From the sequence record MN850584.1: 64,000 nucleotides of DNA. One strand, given 5' to 3'. Below are positions 167-13,166 of the stretch, one piece after another. The notes under the pieces were generated by a model. The model saw only the letters and a list, made by a program, of their open reading frames with translations, had not been told where the DNA came from and searched no databases. Position 1 is the first letter of the stretch, and every line of letters begins with the position of its first letter. The translations under genes were made by a program, and so were the position numbers. This stretch comes from Escherichia phage arall.

Positions 167-1360
167 ATGGCAGCACCAAAATCATGGGAACAATATAAAG
201 AAGAGTGTCAACCTATTGCGAATAATAAAGGGATTGAGATCCTAGGATATGTTGAACCGTTTATAGGTTGTGATACGAAAATGATTCTACGCTGTAGGCA
301 GGAACATGAATGGAAGACTTGTAGTATTAGTAATTTCAAGCACGGTAACAGTTGTCCTATCTGTTCTGGTAAGAAGCCGTTAACATGGGAAACAGAATTG
401 CCGATCTTGGAAGAGATAGCACAGAAGAAGGGGTATCAGGTGTTAGGGTACGTTGGAGAATGGAAAGGGAATAAAACAAAACTTGATTTGTTGTGCCATT
501 GTGGGAATAGATGGCAAAGTACAGCAATTCATCAATTTAAAGGCGGTCGAGGTTGTCCACAATGTAGGGGGGAGAATACAAGGAAGGCACTAACAATGTC
601 CGACGATCAACATATTGCAGATTTCTTTTCTACAGGGAAATTTAAGGAAGGCACTATCTTCACTAACACAGGAACACGGAGTAAAGGATGCAGGCATAGT
701 ATCTGGATGGTTGAATGTCCTGTTTGCTCTCATGATGAATATGTTCAAGCAGGTGTTTGTGATGGTAAATTTTACTCTGAAGGAAATAACCTTAAACGAG
801 GGTGCATTCCGTGTCGTTGTGGGAACTATCGGTATACAGAAGACCAGATCACCTATAGGGTAAAAAAGGAAGTAGAAGGGCAAGGGTATGTCTGGGTAGG
901 TTGGATCGGTAAACCGTCTAGAAGTCACGGTAAGTTTAAATATCTTTGTCTTGTGCATGGGGAACAGACAGGGAGGGCTAATAACTTATTAAGCCTCGGT
1001 CAAGGTTGTCCACAGTGTGCTGGTCATAATCAACAGCAATTATATATTAATATTGTTAAAGATAATGATATTATAGTGGCTCTTAAGTTTGGTATAGCTA
1101 AAGATAGTGATAGGCGATTAAATAGTCAAAATAGTTGTAATATGTTTTTTATGGAGCGTATTTGTTTATATGATTTTAGCACAGTGAAACAATGTAAGGC
1201 TGCTGAAAGAGCTATAAAGAAAAAATTAAAAACTGGTATTTTAACGGAAAGAGAGTTGAAAGACGGTTATACAGAAACAGTAAGTGTTTCTGATTTGGAA
1301 AATCTTCAAGAAATTATTACACAACATGGTGGCAAATTAGTATATAATAAGGAGATGTAA
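167..1360 (+). CDS. Cys-rich repeat protein with C-terminal T5orf172/GIY-YIG-like domain (putative homing-endonuclease-like)
   Basis: RBS AGGAG upstream; three ~55-aa modules each ending GCPQC/SCPIC with upstream CxC/CH pairs; C-terminal LYINIV...KFGIAKD...RRL pattern resembles T5orf172/MUG113 fold; motif recall only. Confidence 0.55.
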   Translation: MAAPKSWEQYKEECQPIANNKGIEILGYVEPFIGCDTKMILRCRQEHEWKTCSISNFKHGNSCPICSGKKPLTWETELPILEEIAQKKGYQVLGYVGEWKGNKTKLDLLCHCGNRWQSTAIHQFKGGRGCPQCRGENTRKALTMSDDQHIADFFSTGKFKEGTIFTNTGTRSKGCRHSIWMVECPVCSHDEYVQAGVCDGKFYSEGNNLKRGCIPCRCGNYRYTEDQITYRVKKEVEGQGYVWVGWIGKPSRSHGKFKYLCLVHGEQTGRANNLLSLGQGCPQCAGHNQQQLYINIVKDNDIIVALKFGIAKDSDRRLNSQNSCNMFFMERICLYDFSTVKQCKAAERAIKKKLKTGILTERELKDGYTETVSVSDLENLQEIITQHGGKLVYNKEM

Positions 1361-1912
1361 ATGCGGATTACTGATAAGTATGTGTTCTTCTTTTCGGCAA
1401 AAGATGAATTTAGCAACTGGTATCTATCATCTTTTATTGAACCTTTAGCTCCCAAGTATAATAATTCTATCACAAGTTCTGTCGAATTTACTTGTGTGGA
1501 ACAATATATGATGTGGAGAAAAGCATGTTTGTTTTATGATTACAATATTGCATCTTCTATTTTAACCGGAGATCTAAGATATACAGGAGAAAAAGAACAA
1601 GCATATTATAAGCGACTAGGTAGATTAGTTAAAGATTATGATGAAGACACCTGGACTTCTTTACGGGAGAAGATTGTCAAACGTGGTTTGTATCTTAAAT
1701 ACACACAAAATGAAGATCTCAAAAATAAACTTATTGCTTACGCAGATAAGGAGTTCGTAGAGGCAAGCCCTTATGATTCTATTTATGGTATCAAAATGGG
1801 GATGTGGGATCGGGACGTGGAAAATAAGGATTGTTGGAAAGGACAAAATCTTTTAGGAAAATGGCATACAGACCTTGCTGTTTATCTAAAAACACAATCT
1901 GATATTTCCTGA
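1361..1912 (+). CDS. NADAR (YbiA/DUF1768)-family protein, putative ADP-ribose-processing hydrolase
   Basis: Start overlaps previous stop (TAAATG); N-terminal FFFSAKDEFSNW and internal EQYMMWRKA, ASPYDSIYGIKMG, GQNLLGKWH match NADAR/YbiA conserved blocks. Confidence 0.7.
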   Translation: MRITDKYVFFFSAKDEFSNWYLSSFIEPLAPKYNNSITSSVEFTCVEQYMMWRKACLFYDYNIASSILTGDLRYTGEKEQAYYKRLGRLVKDYDEDTWTSLREKIVKRGLYLKYTQNEDLKNKLIAYADKEFVEASPYDSIYGIKMGMWDRDVENKDCWKGQNLLGKWHTDLAVYLKTQSDIS

Positions 1913-2130
1913 TATTTTGAAAATTTTTATTTTTATAAAAAGGGGTGTGGTTTCATGTACGGAAATCCACCCTCTGAATAATATATCCAGAGTAAATATT
2001 ATTCTGTACTCTGTTAATAAAGTATTTAATTTGTTTGTTGGACTATGGTATCTGATCTTTAAAAGGTATACTATCTCTTAACTACTACTTATAACAGAAC
2101 AGTAAAATCATTTTTATAAAAAGGATAAAA

Positions 2131-2327
2131 TTATTTAAAGTTTTTACAGATTTTTGGATACAAATTTTGAAAATGAAAAGTTCAAGTTTGGTCAAAATTA
2201 TTTAAAGTTTTTGTACGTATTTCTATCCAGATTTTGAAAATGAAAACTTCAATTTTTTAAAAATTCCCCAGTTTATTTAAAGTTTTTTTGCCTTTTTCCG
2301 TAGAAAAATCAAAAATGAAAAGTTCAA
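2131..2327. repeat. Three direct repeats (~55 bp units: TTATTTAAAGTTTTT...TTTTGAAAATGAAAAGTTCAA)
   Basis: Units start at 2131, 2208 and 2273; each ends with TTGAA-N9-TTCAA inverted motif. Confidence 0.8.
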
Positions 2328-2352
2328 TTTCGTGTTTTTATGGGTGTGCGGA

Positions 2353-2409
2353 TGATAATCATTCTCACTAAGAGAATGAGAATCATTAGCAAATGAGAAT
2401 TTTTCTCAT
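2353..2409. promoter_or_regulatory. Cluster of GATAAT/GAGAAT palindromes (TGATAATCATTCTC; GAGAATGAGAATCATT; ATGAGAA-TTT-TTCTCAT)
   Basis: Perfect 7-3-7 inverted repeat at 2393-2409 plus overlapping dyads; same TGATAATCATTCT motif recurs at 12237, 12295, 13148. Confidence 0.6.
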
Positions 2410-2672
2410 TTAGAGAATAACGCGCAGGGGTGGTGTTTGTCTCGCGCTCCCGTGTCCCCTCGCCATACAATAAGAATAGCATAACCAACAACAAAAGCAA
2501 GCGATTATTTTTATCTTTACATTTCTTTACAAATTTATTTTAGACGAGCTACCGGCGATCAACCTTCCAACCAGTGCCCCCTGGTATGTTAGCCCCGCCT
2601 TTACGCCGTGGGGGTGGCGTTTCCTCTTCTGTATGTAAAACAGTATAAGCCCGATCCCTGGGCTTGTCAAGA

Positions 2673-2939
2673 TTATTTTTTGTTTTCTTGCCAGGATAGG
2701 ACACCTAACCAAAAATACATGTCGCCCCGCGCCCCTGGCGGGATCTTGCTTTCCCCGCCGCCACTGCAAGCCCATAGATAACCATTTACGAACGTATCAA
2801 AGTGATCTATCTCTTCCACCTTATGATTGCCCAGGTTGAGAACGGTTTCAACCTTTAAGCCCGTTGCGCTTGCTACCTGGTGCACCGTGCCGCCTTGCCA
2901 GCCCAATGAGTGCATGAGGTGTAAAGTAGTATTTGTCAT
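2673..2939 (-). CDS. Hypothetical protein in GC-rich island
   Basis: 88-aa ORF (MTNTTLHLMHSLGWQGGTVHQV...) with upstream minus-strand promoter-like TTGCTA-17-TATTAT and AAAGGG RBS; local GC clearly higher than flanks. Confidence 0.4.
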   Translation of the reverse strand: MTNTTLHLMHSLGWQGGTVHQVASATGLKVETVLNLGNHKVEEIDHFDTFVNGYLWACSGGGESKIPPGARGDMYFWLGVLSWQENKK

Positions 2940-2985
2940 GGTATCGCCCTTTCTTTGATGTGCGCCCTGGTTGGCGCGGTAGAAA

Positions 2986-3015
2986 GATAATAGCCCTTTC
3001 CTTTATAGATAGCAA
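2986..3015 (-). promoter_or_regulatory. Sigma70-like promoter (TTGCTA-17-TATTAT) for 2673..2939
   Basis: Consensus-like hexamers on minus strand, divergent from + strand promoter at 3056. Confidence 0.4.
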
Positions 3016-3055
3016 GCAAAAAAAAAGAAATGAAAAAAAGATTAAAAAAAAGGGG

Positions 3056-3084
3056 TTGACGTTCCTCACCTGGTAGCGTATTAT
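3056..3084 (+). promoter_or_regulatory. Sigma70-like promoter (TTGACG-17-TATTAT)
   Basis: Hexamers with 17-nt spacer; divergent partner of minus promoter. Confidence 0.45.
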
Positions 3085-3211
3085 TCATCTTGTCGAGGGG
3101 GGCGAGGCACAACGACAATAAACAAAAGGAGGGCGCAATGTAGGACGGGCAAAGGTGAGGATCTCCATAATCCACCGTCACAATAACATTACTTATAAAA
3201 GGTTGATAACG

Positions 3212-3307
3212 ATGATCAAGAAAGAAAACAGCTTGACGGTTGGAACGATTAACGCTATCATTCTAGCCGTTCCATTTTGGGTTGTAGTAGCGGTTATTAT
3301 CTTTTAA
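3212..3307 (+). CDS. Small hydrophobic peptide (31 aa, MIKKENSLTVGTINAIILAVPFWVVVAVIIF)
   Basis: ATG with AAAGG upstream, single predicted TM helix. Confidence 0.3.
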   Translation: MIKKENSLTVGTINAIILAVPFWVVVAVIIF

Positions 3308-3315
3308 AAATATTC

Positions 3316-3371
3316 TTGACAACGTTTTTTAATCTGATAAGATGTATCACATAGGGCGGCAATAGTGCCGC
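3316..3371 (+). promoter_or_regulatory. Early promoter cassette: TTGACA-16-TAAGAT + 5' hairpin GCGGCA-ATAG-TGCCGC
   Basis: Conserved module CAC-ATAGGGCGG-hairpin then AACAGAAGAGA leader and ATG at 3396. Confidence 0.7.
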
Positions 3372-3395
3372 TCATAACAGAAGAGAGAAATAATC

Positions 3396-3668
3396 ATGGC
3401 ATCATATAGCGCATCAATGATCGTAATGGGTATCACTGGTAAACCTATGCGCGGTGGCGGATCTTTCGCTAACATCAATATTGATGGGCGTTTATCCCTG
3501 GATGCAGCGATCACCGTGGCACGGGAAACATTTAAAAAAGAATGTAATTTCAATAAACAAGATTATCTCGGTTTCGCTATTGAAAAAACCGCGCGCTTTG
3601 TTGATTATAAAAGCCCGAAAATGGTTGATACTACACTAAAAGCGCAAGATGTAGCATTTTTGCTTTAA
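3396..3668 (+). CDS. Hypothetical early protein (90 aa)
   Basis: ORF directly downstream of promoter-hairpin cassette with A/G-rich RBS. Confidence 0.6.
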   Translation: MASYSASMIVMGITGKPMRGGGSFANINIDGRLSLDAAITVARETFKKECNFNKQDYLGFAIEKTARFVDYKSPKMVDTTLKAQDVAFLL

Positions 3669-3671
3669 GGC

Positions 3672-3732
3672 TTGACACTGAAAAATAATTTGGTAATATA
3701 TACTACATAGGGCGGGGAAATGGTTTCCCGCC
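3672..3732 (+). promoter_or_regulatory. Early promoter cassette: TTGACA-16-TAATAT + hairpin GCGGGGAAA-TGG-TTTCCCGC
   Basis: Same module as 3316. Confidence 0.7.
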
Positions 3733-3754
3733 AAATCAAAGAAAGGGTAACACA

Positions 3755-4117
3755 ATGAGCAAGCAAATCAATACTATCATGTTAAACCTGGTATCTTTCC
3801 GCGACGACGTGAAAAATCTTCCACGTGATGCAGTGGATGCACGTATCGAAAGCTATCGCTCACAGATCGCAACGCTACCGCTAAAACGTGATCAACATGC
3901 CGCTAATATGATGCTTAATGCTATGCTTAAAAAGATGATTCAATGTGATCTTACCCTGGCTTATGAATATGCTGGCGATCTCTTTGTAACATATAGCAAG
4001 CCCGTACCAGGTATGAGCACAACCGAAGAATTGCATGCCTTAAATCTGCGACAAGATGCATGGGATAACATGCGCCGTGTTATGGTATGGGTAGAAAGCG
4101 GTAAAATTTACGAATAA
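3755..4117 (+). CDS. Hypothetical early protein (120 aa)
   Basis: ORF after cassette, RBS AAGGG. Confidence 0.6.
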   Translation: MSKQINTIMLNLVSFRDDVKNLPRDAVDARIESYRSQIATLPLKRDQHAANMMLNAMLKKMIQCDLTLAYEYAGDLFVTYSKPVPGMSTTEELHALNLRQDAWDNMRRVMVWVESGKIYE

Positions 4118-4123
4118 AAACGG

Positions 4124-4176
4124 TTGACATTGCACTAAAACCTGATAAGCTATCTTAAAGCGGGAATAGTTCCCGC
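4124..4176 (+). promoter_or_regulatory. Early promoter cassette: TTGACA-16-TAAGCT + hairpin GCGGGAA-TAG-TTCCCGC
   Basis: Module variant with compensatory stem. Confidence 0.65.
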
Positions 4177-4195
4177 TTACATAGGATAAAACTTT

Positions 4196-4342
4196 ATGAA
4201 ACAATATGTAATGAGTATTCACACCAAAAACGGCGCTACTGTTACGACTCCGGCACGGTTTGCACTTGTAAACCGTTGCAAGAGACTAAAACGAGAGCTA
4301 AAAAACAACCGTGCAACGGGCTTTAAACGCTGGGGAGGATAA
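4196..4342 (+). CDS. Small basic protein (48 aa)
   Basis: ATG 20 nt after hairpin; stop precedes GGAGG RBS of next ORF. Confidence 0.45.
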   Translation: MKQYVMSIHTKNGATVTTPARFALVNRCKRLKRELKNNRATGFKRWGG

Positions 4343-4344
4343 TC

Positions 4345-4605
4345 TTGTTTTTTCTAAAAGTTTTTGATAATGTGATCGCTTTTGAACATGCTGCAACGTT
4401 CAACCTGGCGAGATACGCTATCAGGTTTAAAGATAATGTTTATCCCCGTGCTGGTGGCGGTTACACTATCTTTAATCATCGTAACGCTCAATTAACGGAT
4501 ATAACGAATCCAGATCCTGGAGTGTATCGCATAGGTTGGCTACCGTCAAAAGACGCGGCAAGCATGTTTAAGGTATGTAAACTACTAACAGAAGAGGCAA
4601 ATTAG
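4345..4605 (+). CDS. Hypothetical protein (86 aa), probable TTG start
   Basis: GGAGGA 6 nt upstream of TTG at 4345; no in-frame ATG near RBS. Confidence 0.5.
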   Translation: MFFLKVFDNVIAFEHAATFNLARYAIRFKDNVYPRAGGGYTIFNHRNAQLTDITNPDPGVYRIGWLPSKDAASMFKVCKLLTEEAN

Positions 4606-4606
4606 C

Positions 4607-5161
4607 ATGGGGCGTGAGTATGTGATCCAGTCCTGGGTAAAGCATGACGCTAATGATCCGCGCATAATACCAGATGACATGATCGATCACATGGTAGGGT
4701 ATAGCGGGGAGCAGATAGGAAATCGAGCGGCAAAGAGCAACGGCAACACAAAGGCGCGATCCGTTCGCCCTGGTTGGCTGGCAAATGGTAACGCTGACAT
4801 TACAAGCGCCGCAGATCCAAGCGATGACGCTAAAAATAATCCCTTATACAGCATTGATCCGGCTTTTAAGGTGTTAGAAGAATATCCCGCTAAATTAGCC
4901 GCACTAGATAAAGCATACGAAGAAAAACGGGTGGCATGGACTGTATACAACACCGCTAAAATGGTGCTAGATGCAAAATTGATTAAAGCCCAGGAGAAGA
5001 TCAATAAACTTGTTACCATAGCGCAAGAGGAAGACCAGGACGACCAGGAGGAAGAGGAAGAAATCATGCCTATCCTGGAAGAGGAAGAGATCCAGCCATA
5101 CATGCCGACGGAAGAGGAAAAAAGACAAGCCTTAAAAAATTACGAAAATTGTATTGTGTAA
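4607..5161 (+). CDS. Hypothetical protein with strongly acidic C-terminal tail (EDQDDQEEEEEIMPILEEEEIQ)
   Basis: Start overlaps previous stop (TAGCATG); 184 aa. Confidence 0.6.
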   Translation: MGREYVIQSWVKHDANDPRIIPDDMIDHMVGYSGEQIGNRAAKSNGNTKARSVRPGWLANGNADITSAADPSDDAKNNPLYSIDPAFKVLEEYPAKLAALDKAYEEKRVAWTVYNTAKMVLDAKLIKAQEKINKLVTIAQEEDQDDQEEEEEIMPILEEEEIQPYMPTEEEKRQALKNYENCIV

Positions 5162-5164
5162 GGC

Positions 5165-5220
5165 TTGACATATGCAAACAAGCCCCGTAATATGTACCAC
5201 ATAAAGCGGGGCAACGCCCC
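5165..5220 (+). promoter_or_regulatory. Early promoter cassette: TTGACA-17-TAATAT + hairpin GGGGC-AAC-GCCCC
   Basis: Module variant. Confidence 0.6.
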
Positions 5221-5242
5221 ATAAGGTGAAATAAAAAATCAC

Positions 5243-5270
5243 TTGACACCTGAAATCAGTAAGCTATAAT
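5243..5270 (+). promoter_or_regulatory. Sigma70 consensus promoter TTGACA-16-TATAAT (no hairpin)
   Basis: Near-perfect hexamers upstream of 5308. Confidence 0.7.
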
Positions 5271-5307
5271 GCTTATATAAATTAAAGCGTTACTAAGGAA
5301 TAAAATC

Positions 5308-5673
5308 ATGGCTAAAAATATCAATGTTTCTGCTTATGCTACCCTGGCTAACACTGCTAAAATTGAACTATCCAGCATTGAAGCGGTACATATTAGCGCC
5401 CGTCGCTGGTTTCAAAAGTCTTATGGTAATACTTATTTCTCTTTGATGGTTGACGTTGAGATCGGCGGTAAATTGGTCGAAGTGGTTAACGTTCCGTTTC
5501 AATATGGTTATGGTGATCATTTTGATACCGTCGCCCTGGAAGAGTTTAGCAAGGTTATCAACCTGGAAGGTAAAGACTTTTCAAATTATGCTTACCTTTC
5601 CCGTTTTTGCCGTGACAATGGGATCGCTGTATACAGTCATGCAAGCGATGTTAAACGTAAAAAAGATTTATAA
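5308..5673 (+). CDS. Hypothetical early protein (121 aa)
   Basis: RBS AAGGAATAAAATC-ATG; downstream of tandem promoters. Confidence 0.6.
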   Translation: MAKNINVSAYATLANTAKIELSSIEAVHISARRWFQKSYGNTYFSLMVDVEIGGKLVEVVNVPFQYGYGDHFDTVALEEFSKVINLEGKDFSNYAYLSRFCRDNGIAVYSHASDVKRKKDL

Positions 5674-5679
5674 AAAGCA

Positions 5680-5737
5680 TTGACAGCACGAATAAAAAGC
5701 ATATAATACTTATATCGAGAGCGGGAATAGTTCCCGC
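5680..5737 (+). promoter_or_regulatory. Early promoter cassette: TTGACA-16-TATAAT + hairpin GCGGGAA-TAG-TTCCCGC
   Basis: Module. Confidence 0.7.
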
Positions 5738-5761
5738 CTCACTGAAAAAGAGATTAACATC

Positions 5762-6001
5762 ATGGCTAAATCTAAAATGTACAACGGTCACAAAAATAAA
5801 ACTCATTGGAATGTAAGCCTTTGGATCAACAACGATGAAGGTTTTTATAATCTTGCGCGTGAATTTATCGCAGCTAACACCAATAAGAATGACGCAGCGC
5901 GTGATATGATGTTATTTCTTGAAAGTATGGATCAAGATAAAACGCCAGACGGATTCAAGTTCAGTAAAACCGCGATCCGTGCCGCTATGGTTGGAATGTA
6001 A
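5762..6001 (+). CDS. Hypothetical early protein (79 aa)
   Basis: ORF after cassette. Confidence 0.6.
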   Translation: MAKSKMYNGHKNKTHWNVSLWINNDEGFYNLAREFIAANTNKNDAARDMMLFLESMDQDKTPDGFKFSKTAIRAAMVGM

Positions 6002-6096
6002 AGGAGACATAAAAATGAAACATCGTTCGACCTATCTCACAAAACGTTTTAGCTTAGATCATAAATTGGGCTACTACGGAAGAAATAGAAAATAAT

Positions 6097-6155
6097 TTGA
6101 CAACGTTTTAAATTAGTGTAAGATATATCACATAAGGCGGGAAATGGTTTCCCGC
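6097..6155 (+). promoter_or_regulatory. Early promoter cassette: TTGACA-16-TAAGAT + hairpin GCGGGAAA-TGG-TTTCCCGC
   Basis: Module. Confidence 0.7.
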
Positions 6156-6178
6156 CAAATCAAAGAAAGGTTATAATT

Positions 6179-6406
6179 ATGGCTATCGTTATTGTTCGCG
6201 TATCCGGTACGGTTGGAAGCTCCCAGGTAGTAGCAGTTATCACAGAGAAGAAAGGGGATGATCTTCACTCTTCCTTGAATAGCTGGGCGGTCGCTAATTT
6301 TGGTCAGTGGTCGAGCGTCGAGTATATCGAATCCTACCAGGTGCCAACGATTAGCCTGACCGATCTCAACGTTGATCGTCTGTTATGCCTGGATGAATTA
6401 ATCTGA
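6179..6406 (+). CDS. Hypothetical early protein (75 aa)
   Basis: ORF after cassette. Confidence 0.6.
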   Translation: MAIVIVRVSGTVGSSQVVAVITEKKGDDLHSSLNSWAVANFGQWSSVEYIESYQVPTISLTDLNVDRLLCLDELI

Positions 6407-6415
6407 AAAAGATTG

Positions 6416-6471
6416 TTGACACGGGAAAGAAAAAGAGTAAACTGTATTACATAGGGCGGCAATAGTGCCGC
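6416..6471 (+). promoter_or_regulatory. Early promoter cassette: TTGACA-16-TAAACT + hairpin GCGGCA-ATAG-TGCCGC
   Basis: Near-identical to cassette at 3316. Confidence 0.7.
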
Positions 6472-6496
6472 TCATAACAGAAGAGAGATTATCACG

Positions 6497-6712
6497 ATGG
6501 CTAATATCCGCACACTGTTAAAAAATGCAAAGCAAGTTTTATTTTCAGATGACGAATATTTTAATAAAGATATCACAGGCGTGAAAAATCTTAAAGATGT
6601 GAAAGATGTGATAGGTATTCGCGGATCTTTACGTAAAGGTGACACATACGGTAACAAGGTGCAATATAAGTTAGATCAGTTTTATGATTTTACTTTGACA
6701 ATTATTTCATAA
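6497..6712 (+). CDS. Hypothetical early protein (71 aa)
   Basis: ORF after cassette. Confidence 0.6.
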   Translation: MANIRTLLKNAKQVLFSDDEYFNKDITGVKNLKDVKDVIGIRGSLRKGDTYGNKVQYKLDQFYDFTLTIIS

Positions 6713-6718
6713 AACCGC

Positions 6719-6779
6719 TTGCAATCTTAATAAAATAAAGTAAACTAAATTCATCAAGGCGGTGGAATAGCCCACCGCC
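6719..6779 (+). promoter_or_regulatory. Early promoter cassette: TTGCAA-16-TAAACT + hairpin GGCGGTGG-AATAGC-CCACCGCC
   Basis: Module with different stem sequence (covariation). Confidence 0.6.
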
Positions 6780-6803
6780 TAACAAAGAGAAGAGGAAAAT
6801 ATC

Positions 6804-6974
6804 ATGATCACTTTCGCCACCCGTGAAGCCGCTCGCAACGTTGCACGTAAAGTTAACGCCGCCAACCTGGGCGCTACGCTTAAAGCCCCGGTGAAAGATG
6901 AATCAGGTAAATGGATCTTCCCTGGTCTGCGTCACGCTGATAAGCTGGGAACGTTAACGCTAAAAAATAAATAA
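6804..6974 (+). CDS. Small protein (56 aa, MITFATREAARNVARKVNAAN...)
   Basis: ATG 25 nt after hairpin with AGAGGAAAAT RBS; below ORF-track size cut-off. Confidence 0.5.
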   Translation: MITFATREAARNVARKVNAANLGATLKAPVKDESGKWIFPGLRHADKLGTLTLKNK

Positions 6975-6981
6975 GATCCGC

Positions 6982-7039
6982 TTGACAGTAGCATCATTTA
7001 TAAGTAAAGTAACAACAACGGCGGGAAATGGTTTCCCGC
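6982..7039 (+). promoter_or_regulatory. Early promoter cassette: TTGACA-17-TAAAGT + hairpin GCGGGAAA-TGG-TTTCCCGC
   Basis: Module. Confidence 0.7.
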
Positions 7040-7060
7040 CATCAATAAAGAGATAAAATC

Positions 7061-7420
7061 ATGAAATCAGTAAAAGCAATTAAAACCTACATTGTGTCGG
7101 CTATTTCTTTTGAAGGTACTACAACAGAAAAAGAAAAGATCACCGAACTGATGCGCCGTTTTAACTCTGAATACTGGTATCCCGATAATCAAAAACGTTA
7201 CAATTATAACGTGATCAAGGCGATAGCCTCATGGTTACAAGGTTTACCGTCAGACATTAACATCGCCTTTGATTATAACGAGATTGATCATTTATTAATT
7301 GAATGGAAGTACATAAAAGAAACAAGCAAAGAAACAACCGTTACCCGTGAGCGGGAAAATTATTGGTTATATATTGCAAGCATGATCGTAATCCTGGCAA
7401 AACAGCATAACGTGGCGTAA
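7061..7420 (+). CDS. Hypothetical early protein (119 aa)
   Basis: ORF after cassette. Confidence 0.6.
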   Translation: MKSVKAIKTYIVSAISFEGTTTEKEKITELMRRFNSEYWYPDNQKRYNYNVIKAIASWLQGLPSDINIAFDYNEIDHLLIEWKYIKETSKETTVTRERENYWLYIASMIVILAKQHNVA

Positions 7421-7435
7421 TTAAGAGGAAGAAAC

Positions 7436-7573
7436 ATGAACGCATCACAGCAGATCGAAAAATTCAACCGCAGCAAGGCGCGTAAAGATTGGAACGAAGA
7501 GATCACCAAAAAAGGCGACAAGCGGAACAAAACAAAGAGAGATCGCAGCACAAAAAGATACTGGAACGAATAA
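7436..7573 (+). CDS. Small lysine/arginine-rich protein (45 aa)
   Basis: AAGAGGAAGAAAC-ATG; ends just before terminator. Confidence 0.45.
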   Translation: MNASQQIEKFNRSKARKDWNEEITKKGDKRNKTKRDRSTKRYWNE

Positions 7574-7580
7574 CAAAAAA

Positions 7581-7603
7581 GGGCGCAATAAGCGCCCTTT
7601 TAG
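7581..7603 (+). terminator. Rho-independent terminator (GGGCGC-AATAA-GCGCCC + TTTT)
   Basis: GC stem + T-run. Confidence 0.7.
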
Positions 7604-7692
7604 CTTATATAGAGGCTTGTTACCCATAGGCAATGGTAACGCCAGGATAAGCCTATAAATCAACGTTAAACGGCTTTACAGGAGCTTTAAAA

Positions 7693-7875
7693 ATGAAATT
7701 AGACGAAATAAGCAAGGCACTAGCCCAGGGGCAAAGGTTATGCGCCCGATATCGTGATCAATATGGCTTCATAACTAGCGGCGTGATCCTGGGGATTGAA
7801 GGCAATAAGATTTTTATTGACACGTTGAAAAACGTTGTATATAGTGACAATATAATCTCAATAAAACATATATGA
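7693..7875 (+). CDS. Hypothetical protein (60 aa)
   Basis: ORF with RBS AGGAG. Confidence 0.5.
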   Translation: MKLDEISKALAQGQRLCARYRDQYGFITSGVILGIEGNKIFIDTLKNVVYSDNIISIKHI

Positions 7876-7883
7876 GGCAAGAA

Positions 7884-8285
7884 ATGAAAAAATTATTGAT
7901 CGCTGGTTTAATCTCTTTTGGCATGGTTGGAACATCTAGCGCGGCGATATCCTCCACAGTAGCAGAATTAAGCGCCGTTGATGCAATGGAAAACGTCATG
8001 CTTATTAATAATGCGATCCCCGATGAAATCATGGAGGATTCACACATGATCGCTTATGGTGCTGTTACACAACTAACGGCAAAAATAGATAAATCTATTG
8101 TTAACGGCTTAAATGAAGATGTGCCATGTGAAATTATTACCAGTGTGCTGACTACTCAAAATTTTACGCCGTGGTTAAAAAGTATTCAAAAAGTACACAG
8201 TACAGCCGCAGATCGTAGCAATGAAAAACTAGTGTCAGCACTTGCAACGTATACCCTAGCAAAATGCACCGAGATAAAAGATTGA
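7884..8285 (+). CDS. Secreted/periplasmic hypothetical protein (signal peptide MKKLLIAGLISFGMVGTSSA)
   Basis: Start moved to MKKLL (RBS GAGGCAAGAA); classic n-h-c signal peptide with AxA. Confidence 0.55.
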   Translation: MKKLLIAGLISFGMVGTSSAAISSTVAELSAVDAMENVMLINNAIPDEIMEDSHMIAYGAVTQLTAKIDKSIVNGLNEDVPCEIITSVLTTQNFTPWLKSIQKVHSTAADRSNEKLVSALATYTLAKCTEIKD

Positions 8286-8311
8286 CAACATAGAAAGCAC
8301 GTTATAAGATA
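8283..8311 (+). promoter_or_regulatory. Sigma70-like promoter TTGACA-17-TAAGAT
   Basis: Hexamers upstream of 8333. Confidence 0.5.
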
Positions 8312-8332
8312 CACACAACAAAGGAGAACTAC

Positions 8333-8635
8333 ATGAACGGCATAGCTAAAACGTTTTTTCTTTTTTCTGGTGTAAATGATCCATCAATAAAAGTCGATAG
8401 TGTAAAAGAAAACAATACTATCACCGCTAAATTGTTTCAAGATGAAACAAATAACGTGCTAATCATTAATCTTAAAGAAATAACGAAAGGTTATTATACT
8501 ATTGCTTACCATGCGATCTATCATGCGGGTACTAGTGAGGAAGTGCAAACAAGCAACAACGAAAGCGCGGCGCTACCTGGTGATCTGGTGCTGGGCGTTA
8601 TCAGTTTAATTGTCAATGATTTTTTTAAGGAGTAA
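8333..8635 (+). CDS. Hypothetical protein (100 aa), possible N-terminal signal sequence
   Basis: RBS AAGGAGAACTAC-ATG. Confidence 0.55.
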   Translation: MNGIAKTFFLFSGVNDPSIKVDSVKENNTITAKLFQDETNNVLIINLKEITKGYYTIAYHAIYHAGTSEEVQTSNNESAALPGDLVLGVISLIVNDFFKE

Positions 8636-8639
8636 AACC

Positions 8640-8735
8640 ATGCCCTATTTACATTTATTTTTCGGTATCTTATTGACAGGATCTTTTTTCTTCTGTATGC
8701 TTGTTTCTATTGTAAACCACGTTTTAAGACATTAA
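8640..8735 (+). CDS. Small membrane peptide (31 aa)
   Basis: RBS AAGGAG 8 nt upstream; one hydrophobic helix. Confidence 0.35.
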   Translation: MPYLHLFFGILLTGSFFFCMLVSIVNHVLRH

Positions 8736-8744
8736 GGAAACAGC

Positions 8745-8864
8745 ATGAAAATTATTCCCGTACAGTATAGCGTAATAAATCCAGCATATGAGGAAGGAAG
8801 GAAAACAAGCATGGCTTTATGTTGTATTGCTACTATAGCCATGTTGTTATATATTGTGTTTTAA
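8745..8864 (+). CDS. Small membrane peptide (39 aa)
   Basis: RBS AAGGAAACAGC-ATG; C-terminal hydrophobic segment. Confidence 0.35.
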   Translation: MKIIPVQYSVINPAYEEGRKTSMALCCIATIAMLLYIVF

Positions 8865-8893
8865 TAGGTTTTATAGTTGTACGCTTTAAAGGC

Positions 8894-8921
8894 TTGACAA
8901 TTTTTTGTTATGCTTTAAAAT
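8894..8921 (+). promoter_or_regulatory. Sigma70-like promoter TTGACA-16-TAAAAT
   Basis: Hexamers upstream of 8965. Confidence 0.5.
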
Positions 8922-8964
8922 ATATCTTGAAAACGGCAAAGGCCGCAAACAAAAGGGTAAAATT

Positions 8965-9288
8965 ATGAAATCTGTGATCGGTGTTTATTTGGATAACTCT
9001 GATTTTTTCTATCATCGCGCTCGTTTCCTTGATGCGATTGAAATGATAGAATCAGGCTTTAAAGAGTATCGCCTTGCACATGATGACCTAGAAGCATTAC
9101 AGGGCAATAGTGTTTTTACATTGCAAGCGAAAGCACTATGCAAAAGCCGGATCGACATTGCGAGCAAAAAGATAGAACGCGGCATGTCCTGGTTACGCAC
9201 CGCAGAAATCAACATGGGGCAATGGTACGGCGAAAACTTAGAAAATAAACGCACTTTTGTAAATGTAGAAAATCTTAAAGATTATTGA
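8965..9288 (+). CDS. Hypothetical protein (107 aa)
   Basis: Start set at MKSVIG with RBS AAAGGGTAAAATT. Confidence 0.55.
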   Translation: MKSVIGVYLDNSDFFYHRARFLDAIEMIESGFKEYRLAHDDLEALQGNSVFTLQAKALCKSRIDIASKKIERGMSWLRTAEINMGQWYGENLENKRTFVNVENLKDY

Positions 9289-9350
9289 TTGACAGCACAC
9301 CTAACAGATAGTATATTGTATCTCATAGAGCGGGGAAATGGTTTCCCCGC
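9289..9350 (+). promoter_or_regulatory. Early promoter cassette: TTGACA-17-TATATT + hairpin GCGGGGAAA-TGG-TTTCCCCGC
   Basis: Module. Confidence 0.7.
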
Positions 9351-9370
9351 CTTAACAGAAGAGATAAGCT

Positions 9371-9655
9371 ATGAAGATCACAAAAGCACTTTCCAACTAT
9401 GCAGCACGTCGCGGATTATGTTTAACCGTTGAAAATTTAGGGAAAGAAGATTTTTTGTGCTTTTGGGAGCTTGAGAATGATAATGAGTGGATCTTCTCTT
9501 ATTCTATCTGCGAAGATCAAAACGGTTGTTTATTAACCTGGCGCGGTAATATCTATCTACCGGAAGAAATCAAAGAAGAATTACCAGGCACGATCATGAC
9601 TGAGAAACAGCTTAAGGAAGTGATCAATTTTGTAGGGCAAAACATTAAAAAATAA
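9371..9655 (+). CDS. Hypothetical early protein (94 aa)
   Basis: ORF after cassette. Confidence 0.6.
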   Translation: MKITKALSNYAARRGLCLTVENLGKEDFLCFWELENDNEWIFSYSICEDQNGCLLTWRGNIYLPEEIKEELPGTIMTEKQLKEVINFVGQNIKK

Positions 9656-9656
9656 T

Positions 9657-9716
9657 TTGACACTAGGCAAACAACGTAGTAAAGTTTATCACATAGGGCG
9701 GGAAATGGTTTCCCGC
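9657..9716 (+). promoter_or_regulatory. Early promoter cassette: TTGACA-17-TAAAGT + hairpin GCGGGAAA-TGG-TTTCCCGC
   Basis: Module. Confidence 0.7.
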
Positions 9717-9739
9717 TCACAACAGAAGAGAAACAAATC

Positions 9740-9910
9740 ATGATCCCAACTATGTTTTATGTATCGCGCAAAGGTCACAATATTTTTTGGTCTGAAGATT
9801 TAAATGAAGCCATGACGTTTGCCCGTGATCGTGTTGCTATCGGTGGCGTTAACATTACTGTAACCGATGAAAACGGCATTGAATACTATAACGGCGACGA
9901 TGAAGAGTAA
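9740..9910 (+). CDS. Small protein (56 aa)
   Basis: ATG 24 nt after hairpin, RBS AGAGAAACAAATC. Confidence 0.5.
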   Translation: MIPTMFYVSRKGHNIFWSEDLNEAMTFARDRVAIGGVNITVTDENGIEYYNGDDEE

Positions 9911-9918
9911 TTAATGAG

Positions 9919-9939
9919 GCGGGGGGAGTATTCCCCGCC
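9919..9939 (+). promoter_or_regulatory. Conserved 5'-leader hairpin (GGCGGGG-GGAGTAT-TCCCCGCC) without clear -35
   Basis: Same flanking context (…GTCAATAAAGAGG…ATG) as other cassettes. Confidence 0.45.
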
Positions 9940-9958
9940 GTCAATAAAGAGGTAAATC

Positions 9959-10228
9959 ATGAAAATATCATTGGACGTTGCAATCAAGGCCATCGAATCC
10001 GGTTACACCCTGGTAAAAGATGATAAGGCTAAAATAGTGCATCATGTTAACAAGGAAACAGGCGAAAGCATGATCACATATAAAGCCGCCTACTTTCTCC
10101 AATCAGTAGCAGATCCGCGCGTACAACGCCAGGTTACAGCGGCTATTGCTAAAAAATTATGTGCTTTACAGGGCACAAGTTTTAACGAGATCGCCCCGTG
10201 TTTTGACTGGTCGAGCTTGAAAAAATAG
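9959..10228 (+). CDS. Hypothetical early protein (89 aa)
   Basis: ORF after hairpin. Confidence 0.6.
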   Translation: MKISLDVAIKAIESGYTLVKDDKAKIVHHVNKETGESMITYKAAYFLQSVADPRVQRQVTAAIAKKLCALQGTSFNEIAPCFDWSSLKK

Positions 10229-10229
10229 T

Positions 10230-10290
10230 TTGATAATATGCTGTTATCTGGTAAAGTGTACGACATAGGGCGAGGCAATAAGGCAACGCC
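10230..10290 (+). promoter_or_regulatory. Early promoter cassette: TTGATA-16-TAAAGT + hairpin GGGCG-N14-CGCCC
   Basis: Module variant. Confidence 0.5.
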
Positions 10291-10310
10291 CATTAATGAG
10301 GGGTAGAATC

Positions 10311-10415
10311 ATGTTAGAGAAAATTTTCACGGTTGTAATAGTGGGCCTGGCGTTATCGGTTGGATTGGTTGCAACTATGGCTAACATGATCCTATCTTCC
10401 CACGGTATCGGCTAA
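10311..10415 (+). CDS. Small membrane peptide (34 aa)
   Basis: RBS GAGGGGTAGAATC-ATG; hydrophobic. Confidence 0.35.
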   Translation: MLEKIFTVVIVGLALSVGLVATMANMILSSHGIG

Positions 10416-10429
10416 AAGAGAAACACAAC

Positions 10430-10594
10430 ATGAAAACAGAAATCATTATTGAAATCATCAACGGTTATAAAGAAGCCTTTATTTTTGCCGAACCAGCGAC
10501 GGATAACAATGGGGAATATATTGAGAATCTAGACGATTATGATTTTTCTCCTAGCGCCCTGAAATATACACTACTAACACCGCCAACCGTTTAA
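10430..10594 (+). CDS. Small acidic protein (54 aa)
   Basis: RBS AAGAGAAACACAAC-ATG. Confidence 0.4.
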   Translation: MKTEIIIEIINGYKEAFIFAEPATDNNGEYIENLDDYDFSPSALKYTLLTPPTV

Positions 10595-10672
10595 CTGATG
10601 CAGCTAAATTAATGCCATCGGTGCATGCTTACATTGGTGAAGATAATTTGATTTATATTGAATAAAAAGTAT

Positions 10673-10729
10673 TGACACCGATCCCCAATATGTTATTATT
10701 TACCACGTAAGCGGGAAATGGTTTCCCGC
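10673..10729 (+). promoter_or_regulatory. Early promoter cassette: TTGACA-16-TATTAT + hairpin GCGGGAAA-TGG-TTTCCCGC
   Basis: Module. Confidence 0.7.
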
Positions 10730-11987: not shown

Positions 11988-12003
11988 ATAACATTCCATA
12001 CAA

Positions 12004-12029
12004 GGGCGCACAAAGCGCCCTTTCTTTTT
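12004..12029 (+). terminator. Rho-independent terminator (GGGCGC-ACAAA-GCGCCC + TTTCTTTTT)
   Basis: GC stem + T-run. Confidence 0.8.
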
Positions 12030-12117
12030 ACCTCAATAAAGATGATAGCTTTTACCTATCAAAAACGTTCACCGAAAAAAGTGAATAGATCGCGGTATCG
12101 AGCTAATCAAGGAGCAG

Positions 12118-13147: not shown

Positions 13148-13166
13148 GCAAATGATAATCATTATC
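13148..13166. promoter_or_regulatory. Fur-box-like 19-mer GCAAATGATAATCATTATC
   Basis: 17/19 match to recalled E. coli Fur consensus GATAATGATAATCATTATC. Confidence 0.4.

What the first reader, a model, noticed from the sequence alone, without database searches (positions are those of the whole stretch)
2131..2409. Three spaced direct repeats followed by dense GAGAAT palindromes
Three units of about 55 bp, each ending in a TTGAA-N9-TTCAA dyad, sit at roughly 70-bp spacing. They are followed by overlapping inverted repeats, including a perfect ATGAGAA-TTT-TTCTCAT. The arrangement is iteron-like and non-coding, lying between the NADAR gene and the GC-rich island.
Basis: seen in the sequence. 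Interest (0 to 1): 0.5.

Follow-up and report, generated by a model that had tools for sequence, protein, structure and literature searches.

The report
Phage iteron-like repeats beside Fur boxes
A non-coding control region kept across the whole rV5/phi92 group of virulent phages holds three evenly spaced repeats followed by a row of binding sites for Fur, the host's iron sensor, which suggests these phages read the host's iron status at what may be their replication origin.

Summary
Three 63-nt direct repeats lie at 2127-2331, spaced 67 and 75 bp apart, and are far beyond chance. Three overlapping 21-bp palindromes follow at 2350-2411.

The window is a phi92-like coliphage (Justusliebigvirus). 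The same layout occurs in 16 phages from at least 10 genera of Stephanstirmvirinae and Vequintavirinae:
- always three repeats, with R1 to R3 about 142 bp apart;
- then 1-5 palindromes, often exactly 29 bp apart;
- then a conserved GC-rich element.

The repeat sequence differs between the two subfamilies. The palindrome does not: its consensus is AAATGAgAATCATTcTCATTT, which is the enterobacterial Fur box. A matrix built only from the phage sites picks out the classical Fur operators in E. coli (fepA-fes, fepD-entS, fepB-entC, ryhB, feoA).

Two conserved sigma-70-type promoters on the minus strand point into the Fur array and the AT-rich repeats.

Best reading (inferred): a Fur-gated, iteron-type assembly site, most likely a transcription-coupled replication origin or its control region. 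The physical genome ends lie about 11 kb away. No publication on this was found.

The parts
1900..1917 (+). Two copies of TGATATTT (1900-1907, 1910-1917) at the NADAR stop codon. This is the first motif of the conserved non-coding region.
   Evidence: Read. Two to four copies of TGATATTT follow the last upstream gene in all 16 related loci read. Function unknown.
1942..1974 (-). Imperfect GC-rich hairpin. On the minus strand it is followed by a run of T, so it looks like a terminator for leftward transcription.
   Evidence: strand folding: minus strand -15 kcal/mol with a UUUUU tail, z=-1.7. The plus strand has no U tail. Similar hairpins occur in Tr1, KP13-26 and 05F01. It did not meet the criteria of the simple terminator scan.
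2127..2189 (+). Direct repeat R1 (box A TTATTTAAAGTTTTT at 2131-2145; box B GAAAATGAAAAGTTCAAGTTT).
   Evidence: family D1 (reference copy). Orthologous R1 found in 15 other phages.
2194..2256 (+). Direct repeat R2.
   Evidence: D1: 83% identical to R1, 67 bp after it. statistics.
2269..2331 (+). Direct repeat R3.
   Evidence: D1: 71% identical to R1, 75 bp after R2.. The first palindrome centre lies 87 bp after the R3 start in 5 of 7 Stephanstirmvirinae.
2350..2370 (.). Fur-box-like palindrome 1 (GGATGATAATCATTCTCACTA).
   Evidence: Zero mismatches to TGAKAATNATTMTCA. 15/19 to GATAATGATAATCATTATC. 21.7 bits with the phage matrix.
2374..2394 (.). Fur-box-like palindrome 2 (GAATGAGAATCATTAGCAAAT).
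   Evidence: 16/19 to the 19-bp Fur consensus. Sites of at least 16/19: 3 in the window against 0.03 expected. 18.4 bits.
2391..2411 (.). Fur-box-like palindrome 3 (AAATGAGAATTTTTCTCATTT). It is the copy present in every relative, at a fixed distance from the conserved core.
   Evidence: 25.3 bits. The last palindrome lies 137-141 bp (148 bp here) before the CTACCGGCGAT core in 14 of 16 phages (134 bp in ABPH49, 189 bp in Av-05).
2408..2470 (.). Conserved junction and GC-rich block 1 (TTTAGAGAATAACGCGCAGG...GGTGTTTGTCTC...CGCCA).
   Evidence: Alignment A1 of 15 phages. In Vequintavirinae the last palindrome sits in the spacer of TTGAAT-18-CAGAAT on the plus strand. That -35 element is degenerate in this window.
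2473..2500 (-). P_L, a weak sigma-70-type promoter-like site reading leftwards into the Fur array. By hand it reads TTGCTT-16-TATTCT; one search's automatic scan of this interval scored a different best site in the window (TTGTTG-16-TATTGT).
   Evidence: The position is conserved in all 15 aligned phages: 7/12 here and 8-10/12 in most others, with the TTG of the -35 and A2/T6 of the -10 kept. Transcription has not been shown.
2545..2632 (.). Highly conserved core (GAGCTACCGGCGATCAACCTTCC, a hairpin, then GTTAGCCCCGCC...GGTGGCG and a T-rich tail). Candidate non-coding RNA; strand unresolved.
   Evidence: About 84% identical across Vequintavirinae and present in an Aeromonas Plateaulakevirus (L017). 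Covarying hairpin and G-U-compatible changes on the plus strand. No Rfam family.
2642..2670 (-). P_as, a strong sigma-70-type promoter-like site on the minus strand (TTGACA-17-TATACT) with a GC hairpin in its spacer. It reads leftwards through the core towards the Fur array and the repeats.
   Evidence: 11/12. 9-12/12 in all 15 phages. Also present in phages that lack the neighbouring small ORF.
2673..2939 (-). 88-aa ORF (phi92 gp224 homologue) inside the GC-rich island. It has a conserved N-terminal LGWQGGTVHQVA..TGL motif and an unknown function, and is not universal.
   Evidence: PHROG 19316, unknown function. No Pfam family. Absent from CR3, the Erwinia phages and ABPH49, which keep the repeats and palindromes.

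Best explanation
Positions 2127-2411 are the centre of a roughly 1-kb cis-acting control region shared by all rV5/phi92-like virulent phages. It has two parts of different kind.

(1) Three A/T-rich 63-nt direct repeats with fixed geometry (R1 to R3 about 142 bp). Their sequence has diverged between subfamilies while their number and spacing were kept. This is the behaviour of sites for a lineage-specific, probably phage-encoded, DNA-binding protein, that is, iteron-type sites.

(2) Directly next to them, an array of operators for the host iron sensor Fur. Their sequence has stayed at the enterobacterial Fur-box consensus in every lineage.

Two conserved sigma-70-type promoters on the minus strand (P_as, P_L) fire towards the Fur array and then into the 21%-GC repeats. 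A terminator-like hairpin closes the unit before the NADAR gene.

Proposed mechanism (inferred, not shown): the repeats assemble a phage nucleoprotein complex on easily melted DNA, most likely the replication origin. Leftward transcription activates or primes it, as at the T7 primary origin, T4 oriF/oriG or ColE1. Fe2+-Fur bound cooperatively to the array, between the promoters and the repeats, gates that transcription. In Vequintavirinae it would also gate an opposing promoter. Origin use, or expression of the adjacent non-coding RNA, would then follow the host's iron status.

Shown by sequence: the repeats, their conservation, the Fur-box identity of the palindromes, and the conserved promoter-like sites.
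Inferred: Fur occupancy, transcription, and origin function.
For: Repeats
- Beyond chance and unique in the window.
- Exactly three copies in 15 of the 16 phages from at least 10 genera (the middle copy is degenerate in Klebsiella 05F01), with R1-R3 of 138-145 bp in 14 of 16.
- Boxes A and B are conserved while the interior varies.
- The lowest GC of the region, 21%, falls on the repeats.

Palindromes
- Consensus AAATGAGAATCATTCTCATTT from 33 sites.
- 15/19 and 16/19 matches to the published Fur box GATAATGATAATCATTATC (consensus from PMC3788343).
- The phage-derived matrix ranks fepB-entC (twice), fepA-fes and fepD-entS as the top four hits in one E. coli 50-kb region, after which scores drop from 10.8 to 4.7 bits.
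- In a second region it ranks the ryhB promoter first (23.6 bits), a second site upstream of ryhB next, and the feoA upstream region third.
- Only 7 strong sites occur in 64 kb, all in non-coding DNA.
- No Fur-family gene was found in any phage of these subfamilies.
- The palindrome sequence is constant across lineages in which the neighbouring repeats have diverged.
- Spacing is regular: 16 of 27 intervals are exactly 29 bp.

Transcription context
- P_as scores 9-12/12 and P_L 7-10/12 in 15 of 15 phages.
- There is a minus-strand hairpin followed by a T-run.

Other
- The region is not the genome end. The 342-bp terminal repeat of BME3 (PMC12210895) maps to window 13063-13416.
- The rV5 authors marked a 'non-coding' box in their genome map (its position relative to this region was not checked here) and could not locate an origin by skew (PMC3606486).
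Against: - No initiator (Rep-like) gene lies next to the repeats. The neighbours are a NADAR gene, a CapR/T5orf172 endonuclease-like gene and an optional 88-aa ORF.
- There are no DnaA boxes or IHF core sites.
- At 63 nt with about 70-bp spacing, the units are much longer and fewer than classical 17-22-bp iterons.
- GC skew does not switch here, and skew follows transcription in rV5.
- The palindromes are mostly TGAGAAT rather than TGATAAT, carry conserved AAA/TTT flanks, and are spaced by 29 bp rather than by multiples of 6 bp. A different dimeric protein is therefore not excluded.
- In this window no good promoter overlaps the Fur boxes, whereas classical Fur repression acts at the -35/-10.
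- These phages grow well in iron-replete media, so Fur binding cannot be a simple block to replication.
- No transcript, binding or replication data exist for this region.
Confidence: 0.4

Rival explanations
1. Purely transcriptional control region with no origin. Fur represses a rightward promoter that overlaps the last palindrome, and/or blocks the leftward P_as/P_L transcripts. This would make the adjacent conserved GC-rich RNA an iron-regulated phage non-coding RNA, comparable with host RyhB. The three bent A/T-rich repeats would then be upstream activator or architectural sites for that switch.
For: - In all nine Vequintavirinae read, the last palindrome lies exactly in the 18-bp spacer of TTGAAT...CAGAAT on the plus strand. 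That is the classical geometry of Fur repression.
- The distance from the last palindrome to the conserved core is fixed.
- The core has a covarying hairpin and a plus-strand stem with a U-rich tail and G-U-compatible substitutions.
- The E. coli ryhB operator is almost identical to the phage palindrome.
- P_as and the putative rightward promoter face each other, as in interference switches.
Against: - In Stephanstirmvirinae, including this window, the -35 of that plus-strand promoter is degenerate, and no plus-strand promoter was found by the scan.
- RNAalifold support is weak: -13 to -15 kcal/mol with few compensatory pairs.
- This reading does not explain why exactly three long repeats with fixed geometry are kept for over 140 bp.
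- Rfam has no match.
Confidence: 0.3
2. The palindromes are operators for a phage-encoded dimeric regulator, and the resemblance to the Fur box is convergence or mimicry. The repeats and palindromes would together form a phage-autonomous switch.
For: - The 21-bp palindrome has conserved AAA/TTT flanks, a preference for G at position 7, and a 29-bp periodicity that is unusual for Fur arrays.
- The same palindrome recurs in two other non-coding regions of the phage (12234, 12292, 13150, 13345), as phage operators often do.
- A small ORF with a helix-turn-helix-like motif (my reading of the sequence) lies in the region.
Against: - That ORF is missing from CR3, the Erwinia phages and ABPH49, which keep the palindromes.
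- A phage-specific operator would be expected to drift with its protein, as the repeats did. Instead it stays on the host consensus in phages of Escherichia, Salmonella, Klebsiella, Cronobacter, Pectobacterium and Erwinia.
- The phage matrix retrieves genuine Fur operators as top hits in E. coli.
- No Fur-family gene is present in these phages.
Confidence: 0.12
3. Fur decoy. The Fur boxes act in trans. As phage DNA amplifies, its 7-11 strong Fur sites per genome titrate Fur and de-repress host iron uptake to feed phage iron enzymes. Their position next to the repeats would be incidental.
For: - Multicopy DNA carrying a Fur box does titrate Fur in E. coli; this is the basis of the FURTA assay (PMC3788343).
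- The sites are clustered in all three large non-coding regions rather than at one promoter.
- The number of boxes varies (1-5 at this locus; a 52-bp deletion removes two of them in this window relative to phi92).
Against: - One box is held at a fixed distance from the conserved core, and another at a fixed distance from R3, across genera. This argues for a local, cis role.
- Several Vequintavirinae have a single box at this locus, which is a poor decoy.
Confidence: 0.08
4. Genome-end function: a packaging (pac) site, a terminal-repeat boundary, or a T5-like injection stop signal about 11 kb from the end that enters first.
For: - T5 has a repeat- and palindrome-rich non-coding stretch with host-factor boxes near the end of its first-step-transfer DNA (my own recollection, not checked here).
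- This locus lies about 11 kb from the mapped end, and the DNA in between is a block of small early genes.
Against: - The physical ends and the 342-bp terminal repeat reported for the close relative BME3 map to window 13063-13416, not to this locus.
- Stepwise injection is not known for these contractile-tailed phages.
- The early genes between the locus and the end are transcribed towards the end.
Confidence: 0.04

Closest known systems
Fur operators of Enterobacteria (Fur box GATAATGATAATCATTATC; extended arrays such as the aerobactin, ent/fep and ryhB operators)
   Same: - Same core sequence: TGAkAATnATTmTCA with 0-1 mismatch, and 15-16 of 19 matches to the consensus.
- Several adjacent or overlapping sites, as in long Fur operators.
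- A matrix built from the phage sites finds the fep/ent, ryhB and feoA operators.
   Different: - The sites are located in a virulent phage genome, not upstream of an iron-uptake gene.
- G is preferred over T at position 7.
- Centre-to-centre spacing is often exactly 29 bp.
- In this window the sites do not overlap a recognisable -35/-10.
- Binding by Fur is untested.
Iteron-type replication origins (lambda ori, P1 oriR, pSC101, R6K; satellite PLE ori bound by RepA, PMC7145576)
   Same: - Unique cluster of same-orientation direct repeats in a large non-coding, AT-rich region.
- The repeat sequence is lineage-specific while the arrangement is conserved.
- Host-factor sites lie alongside.
   Different: - Only three units, each 63 nt and about 70 bp apart, against 17-22-bp units about two helical turns apart.
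- No adjacent initiator gene.
- No DnaA or IHF sites.
- Origin activity has not been shown.
Transcription-activated or transcription-primed origins (T7 primary origin with tandem promoters plus an AT-rich stretch; T4 oriF/oriG promoter plus unwinding element; ColE1 RNA II/RNA I). Cited from general knowledge.
   Same: Two tandem conserved promoters point into an easily melted AT-rich segment a few hundred bp downstream. Antisense transcription across the 5' part is possible.
   Different: - The promoters here are host sigma-70 type.
- A host metalloregulator array sits between the promoters and the AT-rich DNA.
- No R-loop or primer evidence exists.
Host global-regulator sites in virulent phage genomes (CtrA boxes in phages of Alphaproteobacteria, 'lytic deferment', PMC9437464, abstract seen; Fur box upstream of sitABCD in lambdoid prophages, PMC6969025)
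   Same: The phage DNA carries consensus sites for a host regulator that reports cell state, which would allow the phage to time its development.
   Different: - Different regulator and signal (iron).
- The Fur example in the literature concerns a cargo operon of temperate phages, not a core control region of a virulent phage.

Membership tests
Fur box (Fur operator) | Match to the 19-bp consensus GATAATGATAATCATTATC, read as the inverted repeat TGATAATnATTATCA | tested here: met
   15/19 at 2348 and 16/19 at 2372. Zero or one mismatch to TGAKAATNATTMTCA at 2353, 2377 and 2394 (12 matches in the window against 2.5 expected).
Fur box (Fur operator) | The motif is interchangeable with genuine Fur operators, so a model of one finds the other | tested here: met
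   The matrix from 33 phage sites ranks fepB-entC, fepA-fes and fepD-entS as the top four of 50 kb. In another 50 kb the top three are ryhB (23.6 bits), a second site upstream of ryhB and the feoA upstream region.
Fur box (Fur operator) | The operator overlaps the -35/-10 of the regulated promoter | tested here: inconclusive
   In nine Vequintavirinae the last box fills the spacer of TTGAAT-18-CAGAAT. In this window no plus-strand promoter is found, and the boxes lie 55-115 bp downstream of the minus-strand P_L.
Fur box (Fur operator) | Metal-dependent binding by Fur (EMSA or footprint, FURTA, ChIP) | not testable with these tools
   Needs experiments.
Iteron-type replication origin | Cluster of direct repeats in one orientation at regular spacing, unique in the replicon | tested here: met
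   Three copies, spaced 67 and 75 bp. Box A occurs only here in 64 kb. Three copies are conserved in 15 of 16 phages (the middle one is degenerate in 05F01). The rest of the genome was not scanned.
Iteron-type replication origin | Repeat length about 17-22 bp, spaced about two helical turns apart | tested here: not met
   The units are 63 nt and about 70 bp apart, with two conserved boxes 47 bp apart.
Iteron-type replication origin | Cognate initiator gene adjacent to or overlapping the iterons | tested here: not met
   The neighbours are CapR/T5orf172, NADAR and an 88-aa ORF with no family. In Vequintavirinae the neighbour is a ~280-aa protein with no family.
Iteron-type replication origin | AT-rich unwinding element and host-factor sites (DnaA, IHF) | tested here: inconclusive
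   AT-rich: yes, 21% GC over 2101-2300. There are no conserved DnaA or IHF core sites; Fur boxes are present instead.
Iteron-type replication origin | Replication initiates here | not testable with these tools
   Needs marker-frequency sequencing, 2-D gels or a deletion. GC skew is uninformative (PMC3606486).
Terminal repeat / pac site / injection-stop region | Coincides with or abuts the physical genome ends | tested here: not met
   Positions 1-353 of BME3, which reportedly has a 342-bp direct terminal repeat, align to window 13416-13063. That is 11 kb from the finding.
Known RNA family (Rfam) | Covariance-model match | tested here: not met
   There is no relevant match over 1800-3500 at E<=1. 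The only hit is a chance-level match at 3344-3390, outside the finding.

The most novel reading that the evidence does not exclude
A whole group of therapeutically used virulent phages (rV5-, PVP-SE1-, phi92- and phAPEC8-like) wires the host iron sensor Fur into a core control region. Fe-Fur would gate transcription into a three-iteron origin, and/or the expression of a deeply conserved phage non-coding RNA, so that lytic development is tuned to host iron status. A side effect would be that the amplifying phage DNA titrates Fur.
Probability: 0.35. Interest if true: 0.8.

Novelty: new variant of a known kind. Interest (0 to 1): 0.62.

Why it matters
rV5/phi92-like phages are broad-host-range candidates for phage therapy and biocontrol, yet neither their origin of replication nor the function of their large non-coding regions is known. 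The rV5 paper only draws a 'non-coding' box, and some GenBank records only tag a 'repeat_region'.

If the Fur sites are functional, these virulent phages sense iron, a nutrient that the infected animal host deliberately withholds. Their replication or gene expression, and hence their efficacy, would then depend on iron availability and on the fur genotype of the target strain.

The finding also provides concrete tools:
- a defined candidate origin and candidate iterons for engineering;
- a testable case of a host global regulator being used by a strictly lytic phage;
- a conserved candidate non-coding RNA next to it.

Tried and rejected
- **Rfam** on 1800-3500 found nothing relevant.
- **BLAST** of the whole intergenic region against plasmids and 5,426 E. 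coli genomes gave no match, so it is not a borrowed plasmid origin or host segment. BLAST of the phi92 palindrome array against E. coli genomes was too short to be informative.
- **DnaA boxes and IHF core sites:** none are conserved. GATC clusters occur in the repeats of most Vequintavirinae but not in Erwinia phages or Stephanstirmvirinae, so Dam/SeqA control is not general.
- **Repeats as promoters:** there is no sigma-70 match on either strand. Box A contains TAAAGTTT, which I recall as the -35 element of sigma-28 promoters, but the -10 GCCGATAA is neither present nor conserved, so this was rejected.
- **Coding potential:** the ORFs are short, broken by indels and not conserved.
- **gp224 as the binding protein:** rejected as a general answer because it is absent from several phages that keep the sites. 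It has no PDB or Pfam relatives.
- **Upstream proteins:** the Stephanstirmvirinae AAA ATPase and the Vequintavirinae ~280-aa protein are unrelated to each other and gave no informative family match: only generic AAA/P-loop matches for the ATPase, none for the ~280-aa protein.
- **Phage-encoded Fur:** none found.
- **Pairing of the conserved RNA with host RyhB:** unconstrained duplex energies were no better than shuffles, so the test was uninformative.
- **RNA structure of the GC-rich element:** only weak consensus folds. The plus strand is slightly favoured by G-U patterns, but a strong conserved promoter is on the minus strand, so this is unresolved.
- **Literature:** searches for Fur boxes, origins or transcriptomes in these phages returned nothing pertinent. 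The phi92 paper is not held.

Full report
**What the window is.** BLAST of 1900-2700 against phage genomes gives 237 records. The best are Escherichia phages Eryne, JLBYU50 and muut (96-97%), then phi92 and other Justusliebigvirus (about 92%). The window is therefore a phi92-like virulent myovirus of the subfamily Stephanstirmvirinae. Upstream of the finding lie a CapR/T5orf172 endonuclease-like gene (167-1360) and a NADAR gene (1361-1912). Downstream lie a GC-rich stretch with an 88-aa minus-strand ORF (phi92 gp224) and then a long series of small plus-strand genes, each with a consensus sigma-70 promoter.

**Checking the observation.** Three 63-nt direct repeats lie at 2127-2189, 2194-2256 and 2269-2331, spaced 67 and 75 bp apart. 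Pairwise matches are 52, 45 and 45 of 63. The best pair in 200 dinucleotide-preserving shuffles never exceeded 39. The dyad TTGAA-N9-TTCAA exists in copies 1 and 2 only. The perfect ATGAGAATTTTTCTCAT is at 2393-2409. It belongs to three overlapping 21-bp palindromes centred at 2360, 2384 and 2401.

**Conservation.** I read the homologous region in 15 other phages:
- Stephanstirmvirinae: phi92, Citrobacter Tr1, Klebsiella phi1_175008, KP13-26 and 05F01, and the Phapecoctavirus tuntematon.
- Vequintavirinae: PVP-SE1, 4MG, KB57, CR3, phiTE, ABPH49, two Erwinia Henunaviruses and Av-05.

All have the same order of elements:
1. two to four copies of TGATATTT after the last gene;
2. a variable spacer;
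3. exactly three direct repeats (the middle one is degenerate in 05F01);
4. one to five palindromes;
5. a conserved junction (TTTGCAGAATgaCGGGCAGG);
6. a GC-rich conserved element of about 250 nt;
7. a minus-strand TTGACA promoter-like site;
8. the early promoters.

The R1-to-R3 distance is 138-145 bp in 14 of 16 phages. Within Stephanstirmvirinae, box A (TTATTTAAAGTTTTT) and an A-tract box B 47 bp downstream are conserved, while the interior of each unit varies. In Vequintavirinae the unit reads GGTnCTCGATCGnTTTTTCnAAATCGAnAnCGTATTTTTTC...GAAAAAATTTTT. That is a different sequence with the same number and geometry. Some GenBank records (alia, inny, muut, tuntematon) tag these stretches only as 'repeat_region'. 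The rV5 paper shows a 'non-coding' box and reports that skew analysis did not reveal an origin.

**The palindromes are Fur boxes.** Thirty-three palindromes from 11 phages give the consensus AAATGAGAATCATTCTCATTT. Its core is the inverted-repeat reading of the Fur box. The window sites match the published 19-bp Fur box GATAATGATAATCATTATC (PMC3788343) at 15/19 and 16/19. Sites with at least 16/19 number 3 in the window, against 0.03 expected.

As a test that does not depend on my reading, I scanned two 50-kb pieces of E. coli MG1655 with the phage-derived matrix:
- In 595-645 kb the four best hits fall in the fepB-entC (twice), fepA-fes and fepD-entS intergenic regions. The next score then drops from 10.8 to 4.7 bits.
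- In 3535-3585 kb the best hit by far (23.6 bits) is the ryhB promoter. The second hit also lies upstream of ryhB and the third upstream of feoA.

That these are the classical Fur-controlled promoters is established knowledge.

Three further points support a host factor:
- No phage of either subfamily encodes a Fur-family protein (tblastn).
- The palindrome sequence is the same in phages of Escherichia, Salmonella, Klebsiella, Cronobacter, Pectobacterium and Erwinia, although the adjacent repeats have diverged beyond alignment.
- The only ORF in the region (gp224) is missing from several phages that keep the palindromes.

Some features are not typical of Fur operators. G is preferred at position 7, the AAA/TTT flanks are conserved, and the centre-to-centre spacing is exactly 29 bp in 16 of 27 intervals. 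Binding has not been tested.

The window has 3 boxes where phi92 and most relatives have 5. The difference is a 52-bp deletion between two GATAATCATTCTCA copies.

**Transcriptional context.** On the minus strand a strong promoter-like site (TTGACA-17-TATACT, 2670 to 2642) scores 11/12 here and 9-12/12 in all 15 aligned phages. A second site (2500 to 2473) scores 7/12 here and 8-10/12 in most others, with the TTG of the -35 and A2/T6 of the -10 invariant. Both point leftwards through the GC-rich element into the Fur array and then the repeats. A hairpin followed by a T-run on the minus strand lies at 1942-1974. In Vequintavirinae the last Fur box fills the 18-bp spacer of a plus-strand TTGAAT...CAGAAT; that -35 is degenerate in this window. 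None of this transcription has been demonstrated, and I found no transcriptome for this phage group.

**What it is not.**
- It is not the genome end. BME3, a close relative, is reported to have 342-bp direct terminal repeats, and its first 353 bases align to window 13416-13063.
- It has no similarity to plasmids or E. coli chromosomes.
- It has no Rfam family.
- It has no DnaA or IHF sites.
- It has no adjacent initiator gene.

**Interpretation.** The repeats behave like iterons. They are unique, arranged in order, lineage-specific in sequence, fixed in geometry, and placed on the most AT-rich DNA of the region (21% GC). The palindromes behave like host Fur operators. Their fixed positions point to a local, cis role: 87 bp after the R3 start in five of seven Stephanstirmvirinae, and 137-141 bp (148 bp here) before the conserved core in 14 of 16 phages.

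The arrangement is tandem promoters, then a Fur array, then an AT-rich iteron block, then a terminator. It most resembles transcription-activated origins, with Fur as a gate. I rate this at 0.4. A purely transcriptional switch for the neighbouring conserved RNA is the main rival (0.3). Lesser rivals are a phage-encoded ligand for the palindromes (0.12), a Fur decoy (0.08) and an end-related function (0.04).

**Novelty.** Fur boxes and iterons are both known kinds of element. Their combination as a conserved core control region of virulent phages was not found in the searchable literature. The only Fur box reported in phages in those searches is upstream of the sitABCD cargo operon of lambdoid prophages. 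I class the finding as a new variant of known kinds, with interest 0.62.

Noticed in passing
window 2545-2632 (with 2408-2545 upstream): A ~90-nt non-coding core (GAGCTACCGGCGATCnACCTTCC, a covarying hairpin, then GTTAGCCCCGCC..GGTGGCG and a T-rich tail). It is about 84% identical across Vequintavirinae and Stephanstirmvirinae and is present even in an Aeromonas Plateaulakevirus (L017 1530-1600). It is a candidate conserved phage non-coding RNA with no Rfam family. The strand is unresolved: the plus-strand fold has G-U-compatible changes, but the strong conserved promoter is on the minus strand. The minus-strand RNA would carry an invariant Shine-Dalgarno-like AAGGUnGAUC.
   Followed up: partly
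window 11990-13800: A second large non-coding region (1.8 kb) carries four more strong Fur-box matches (12234, 12292, 13150, 13345); 13153-13167 is a perfect TGATAATCATTATCA. Window 13063-13416 aligns to the first 353 bases of phage BME3, which reportedly has a 342-bp direct terminal repeat. The physical genome ends, with two Fur boxes in the repeat, therefore probably lie here.
   Followed up: partly
window 12300-12660: A 361-nt stretch with only 5.3% G on the plus strand (A 40%, T 37%, C 18%). It contains short repeats such as AACTATAATCTATC, and no ORF. Function unknown.
   Followed up: no
window 3316-10700 (e.g. 3316-3375, 3672-3735, 6097-6160, 9289-9350): At least a dozen early promoters (TTGACA-16/17-TAnnnT) are each followed, right at the predicted 5' end of the transcript, by a near-identical GC-rich stem-loop (ATAGGGCGGGAAATGGTTTCCCGCC, about -15 kcal/mol). 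These are repeated promoter-plus-stem-loop cassettes, reminiscent of the 'PeSL' cassettes described for T4-type phages (PMC2839356; only its abstract was seen in a search list).
   Followed up: partly
window 2363-2364, compared with L003 (phi92) 3270-3321: This phage, like Eryne, JLBYU50 and muut, lacks 52 bp present in phi92 and most Justusliebigvirus. The deletion lies between two GATAATCATTCTCA copies and removes two of five Fur-box palindromes, giving a natural 3-box versus 5-box polymorphism.
   Followed up: yes
window 167-1360: The 397-aa ORF upstream of NADAR has four CapR-homology zinc-ribbon repeats and a T5orf172 domain (PHROG 'endonuclease'). It is probably a mobile homing-endonuclease-like gene. 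Its length and presence vary among relatives (alia 1398 nt, inny 1173 nt, BME3 990 nt).
   Followed up: partly
L006 2680-2715; L010 2010-2110; L011 1950-2085; L015 1075-1190; L016 970-1090: A further short motif, TTATCTCAAA, occurs 2-3 times between the upstream gene and repeat R1 in tuntematon and in most Vequintavirinae. In this window it is degenerate (ACTATCTCTTAAC near 2071). It may be a fourth class of protein-binding site in the control region.
   Followed up: no
window 2673-2939 (minus strand): The 88-aa gp224 homologue has a conserved N-terminal segment, LGWQGGTVHQVAxxTGLxVxxVLxL, that looks like a helix-turn-helix. It has no Pfam or PDB relatives and is present in only some lineages.
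   Followed up: partly
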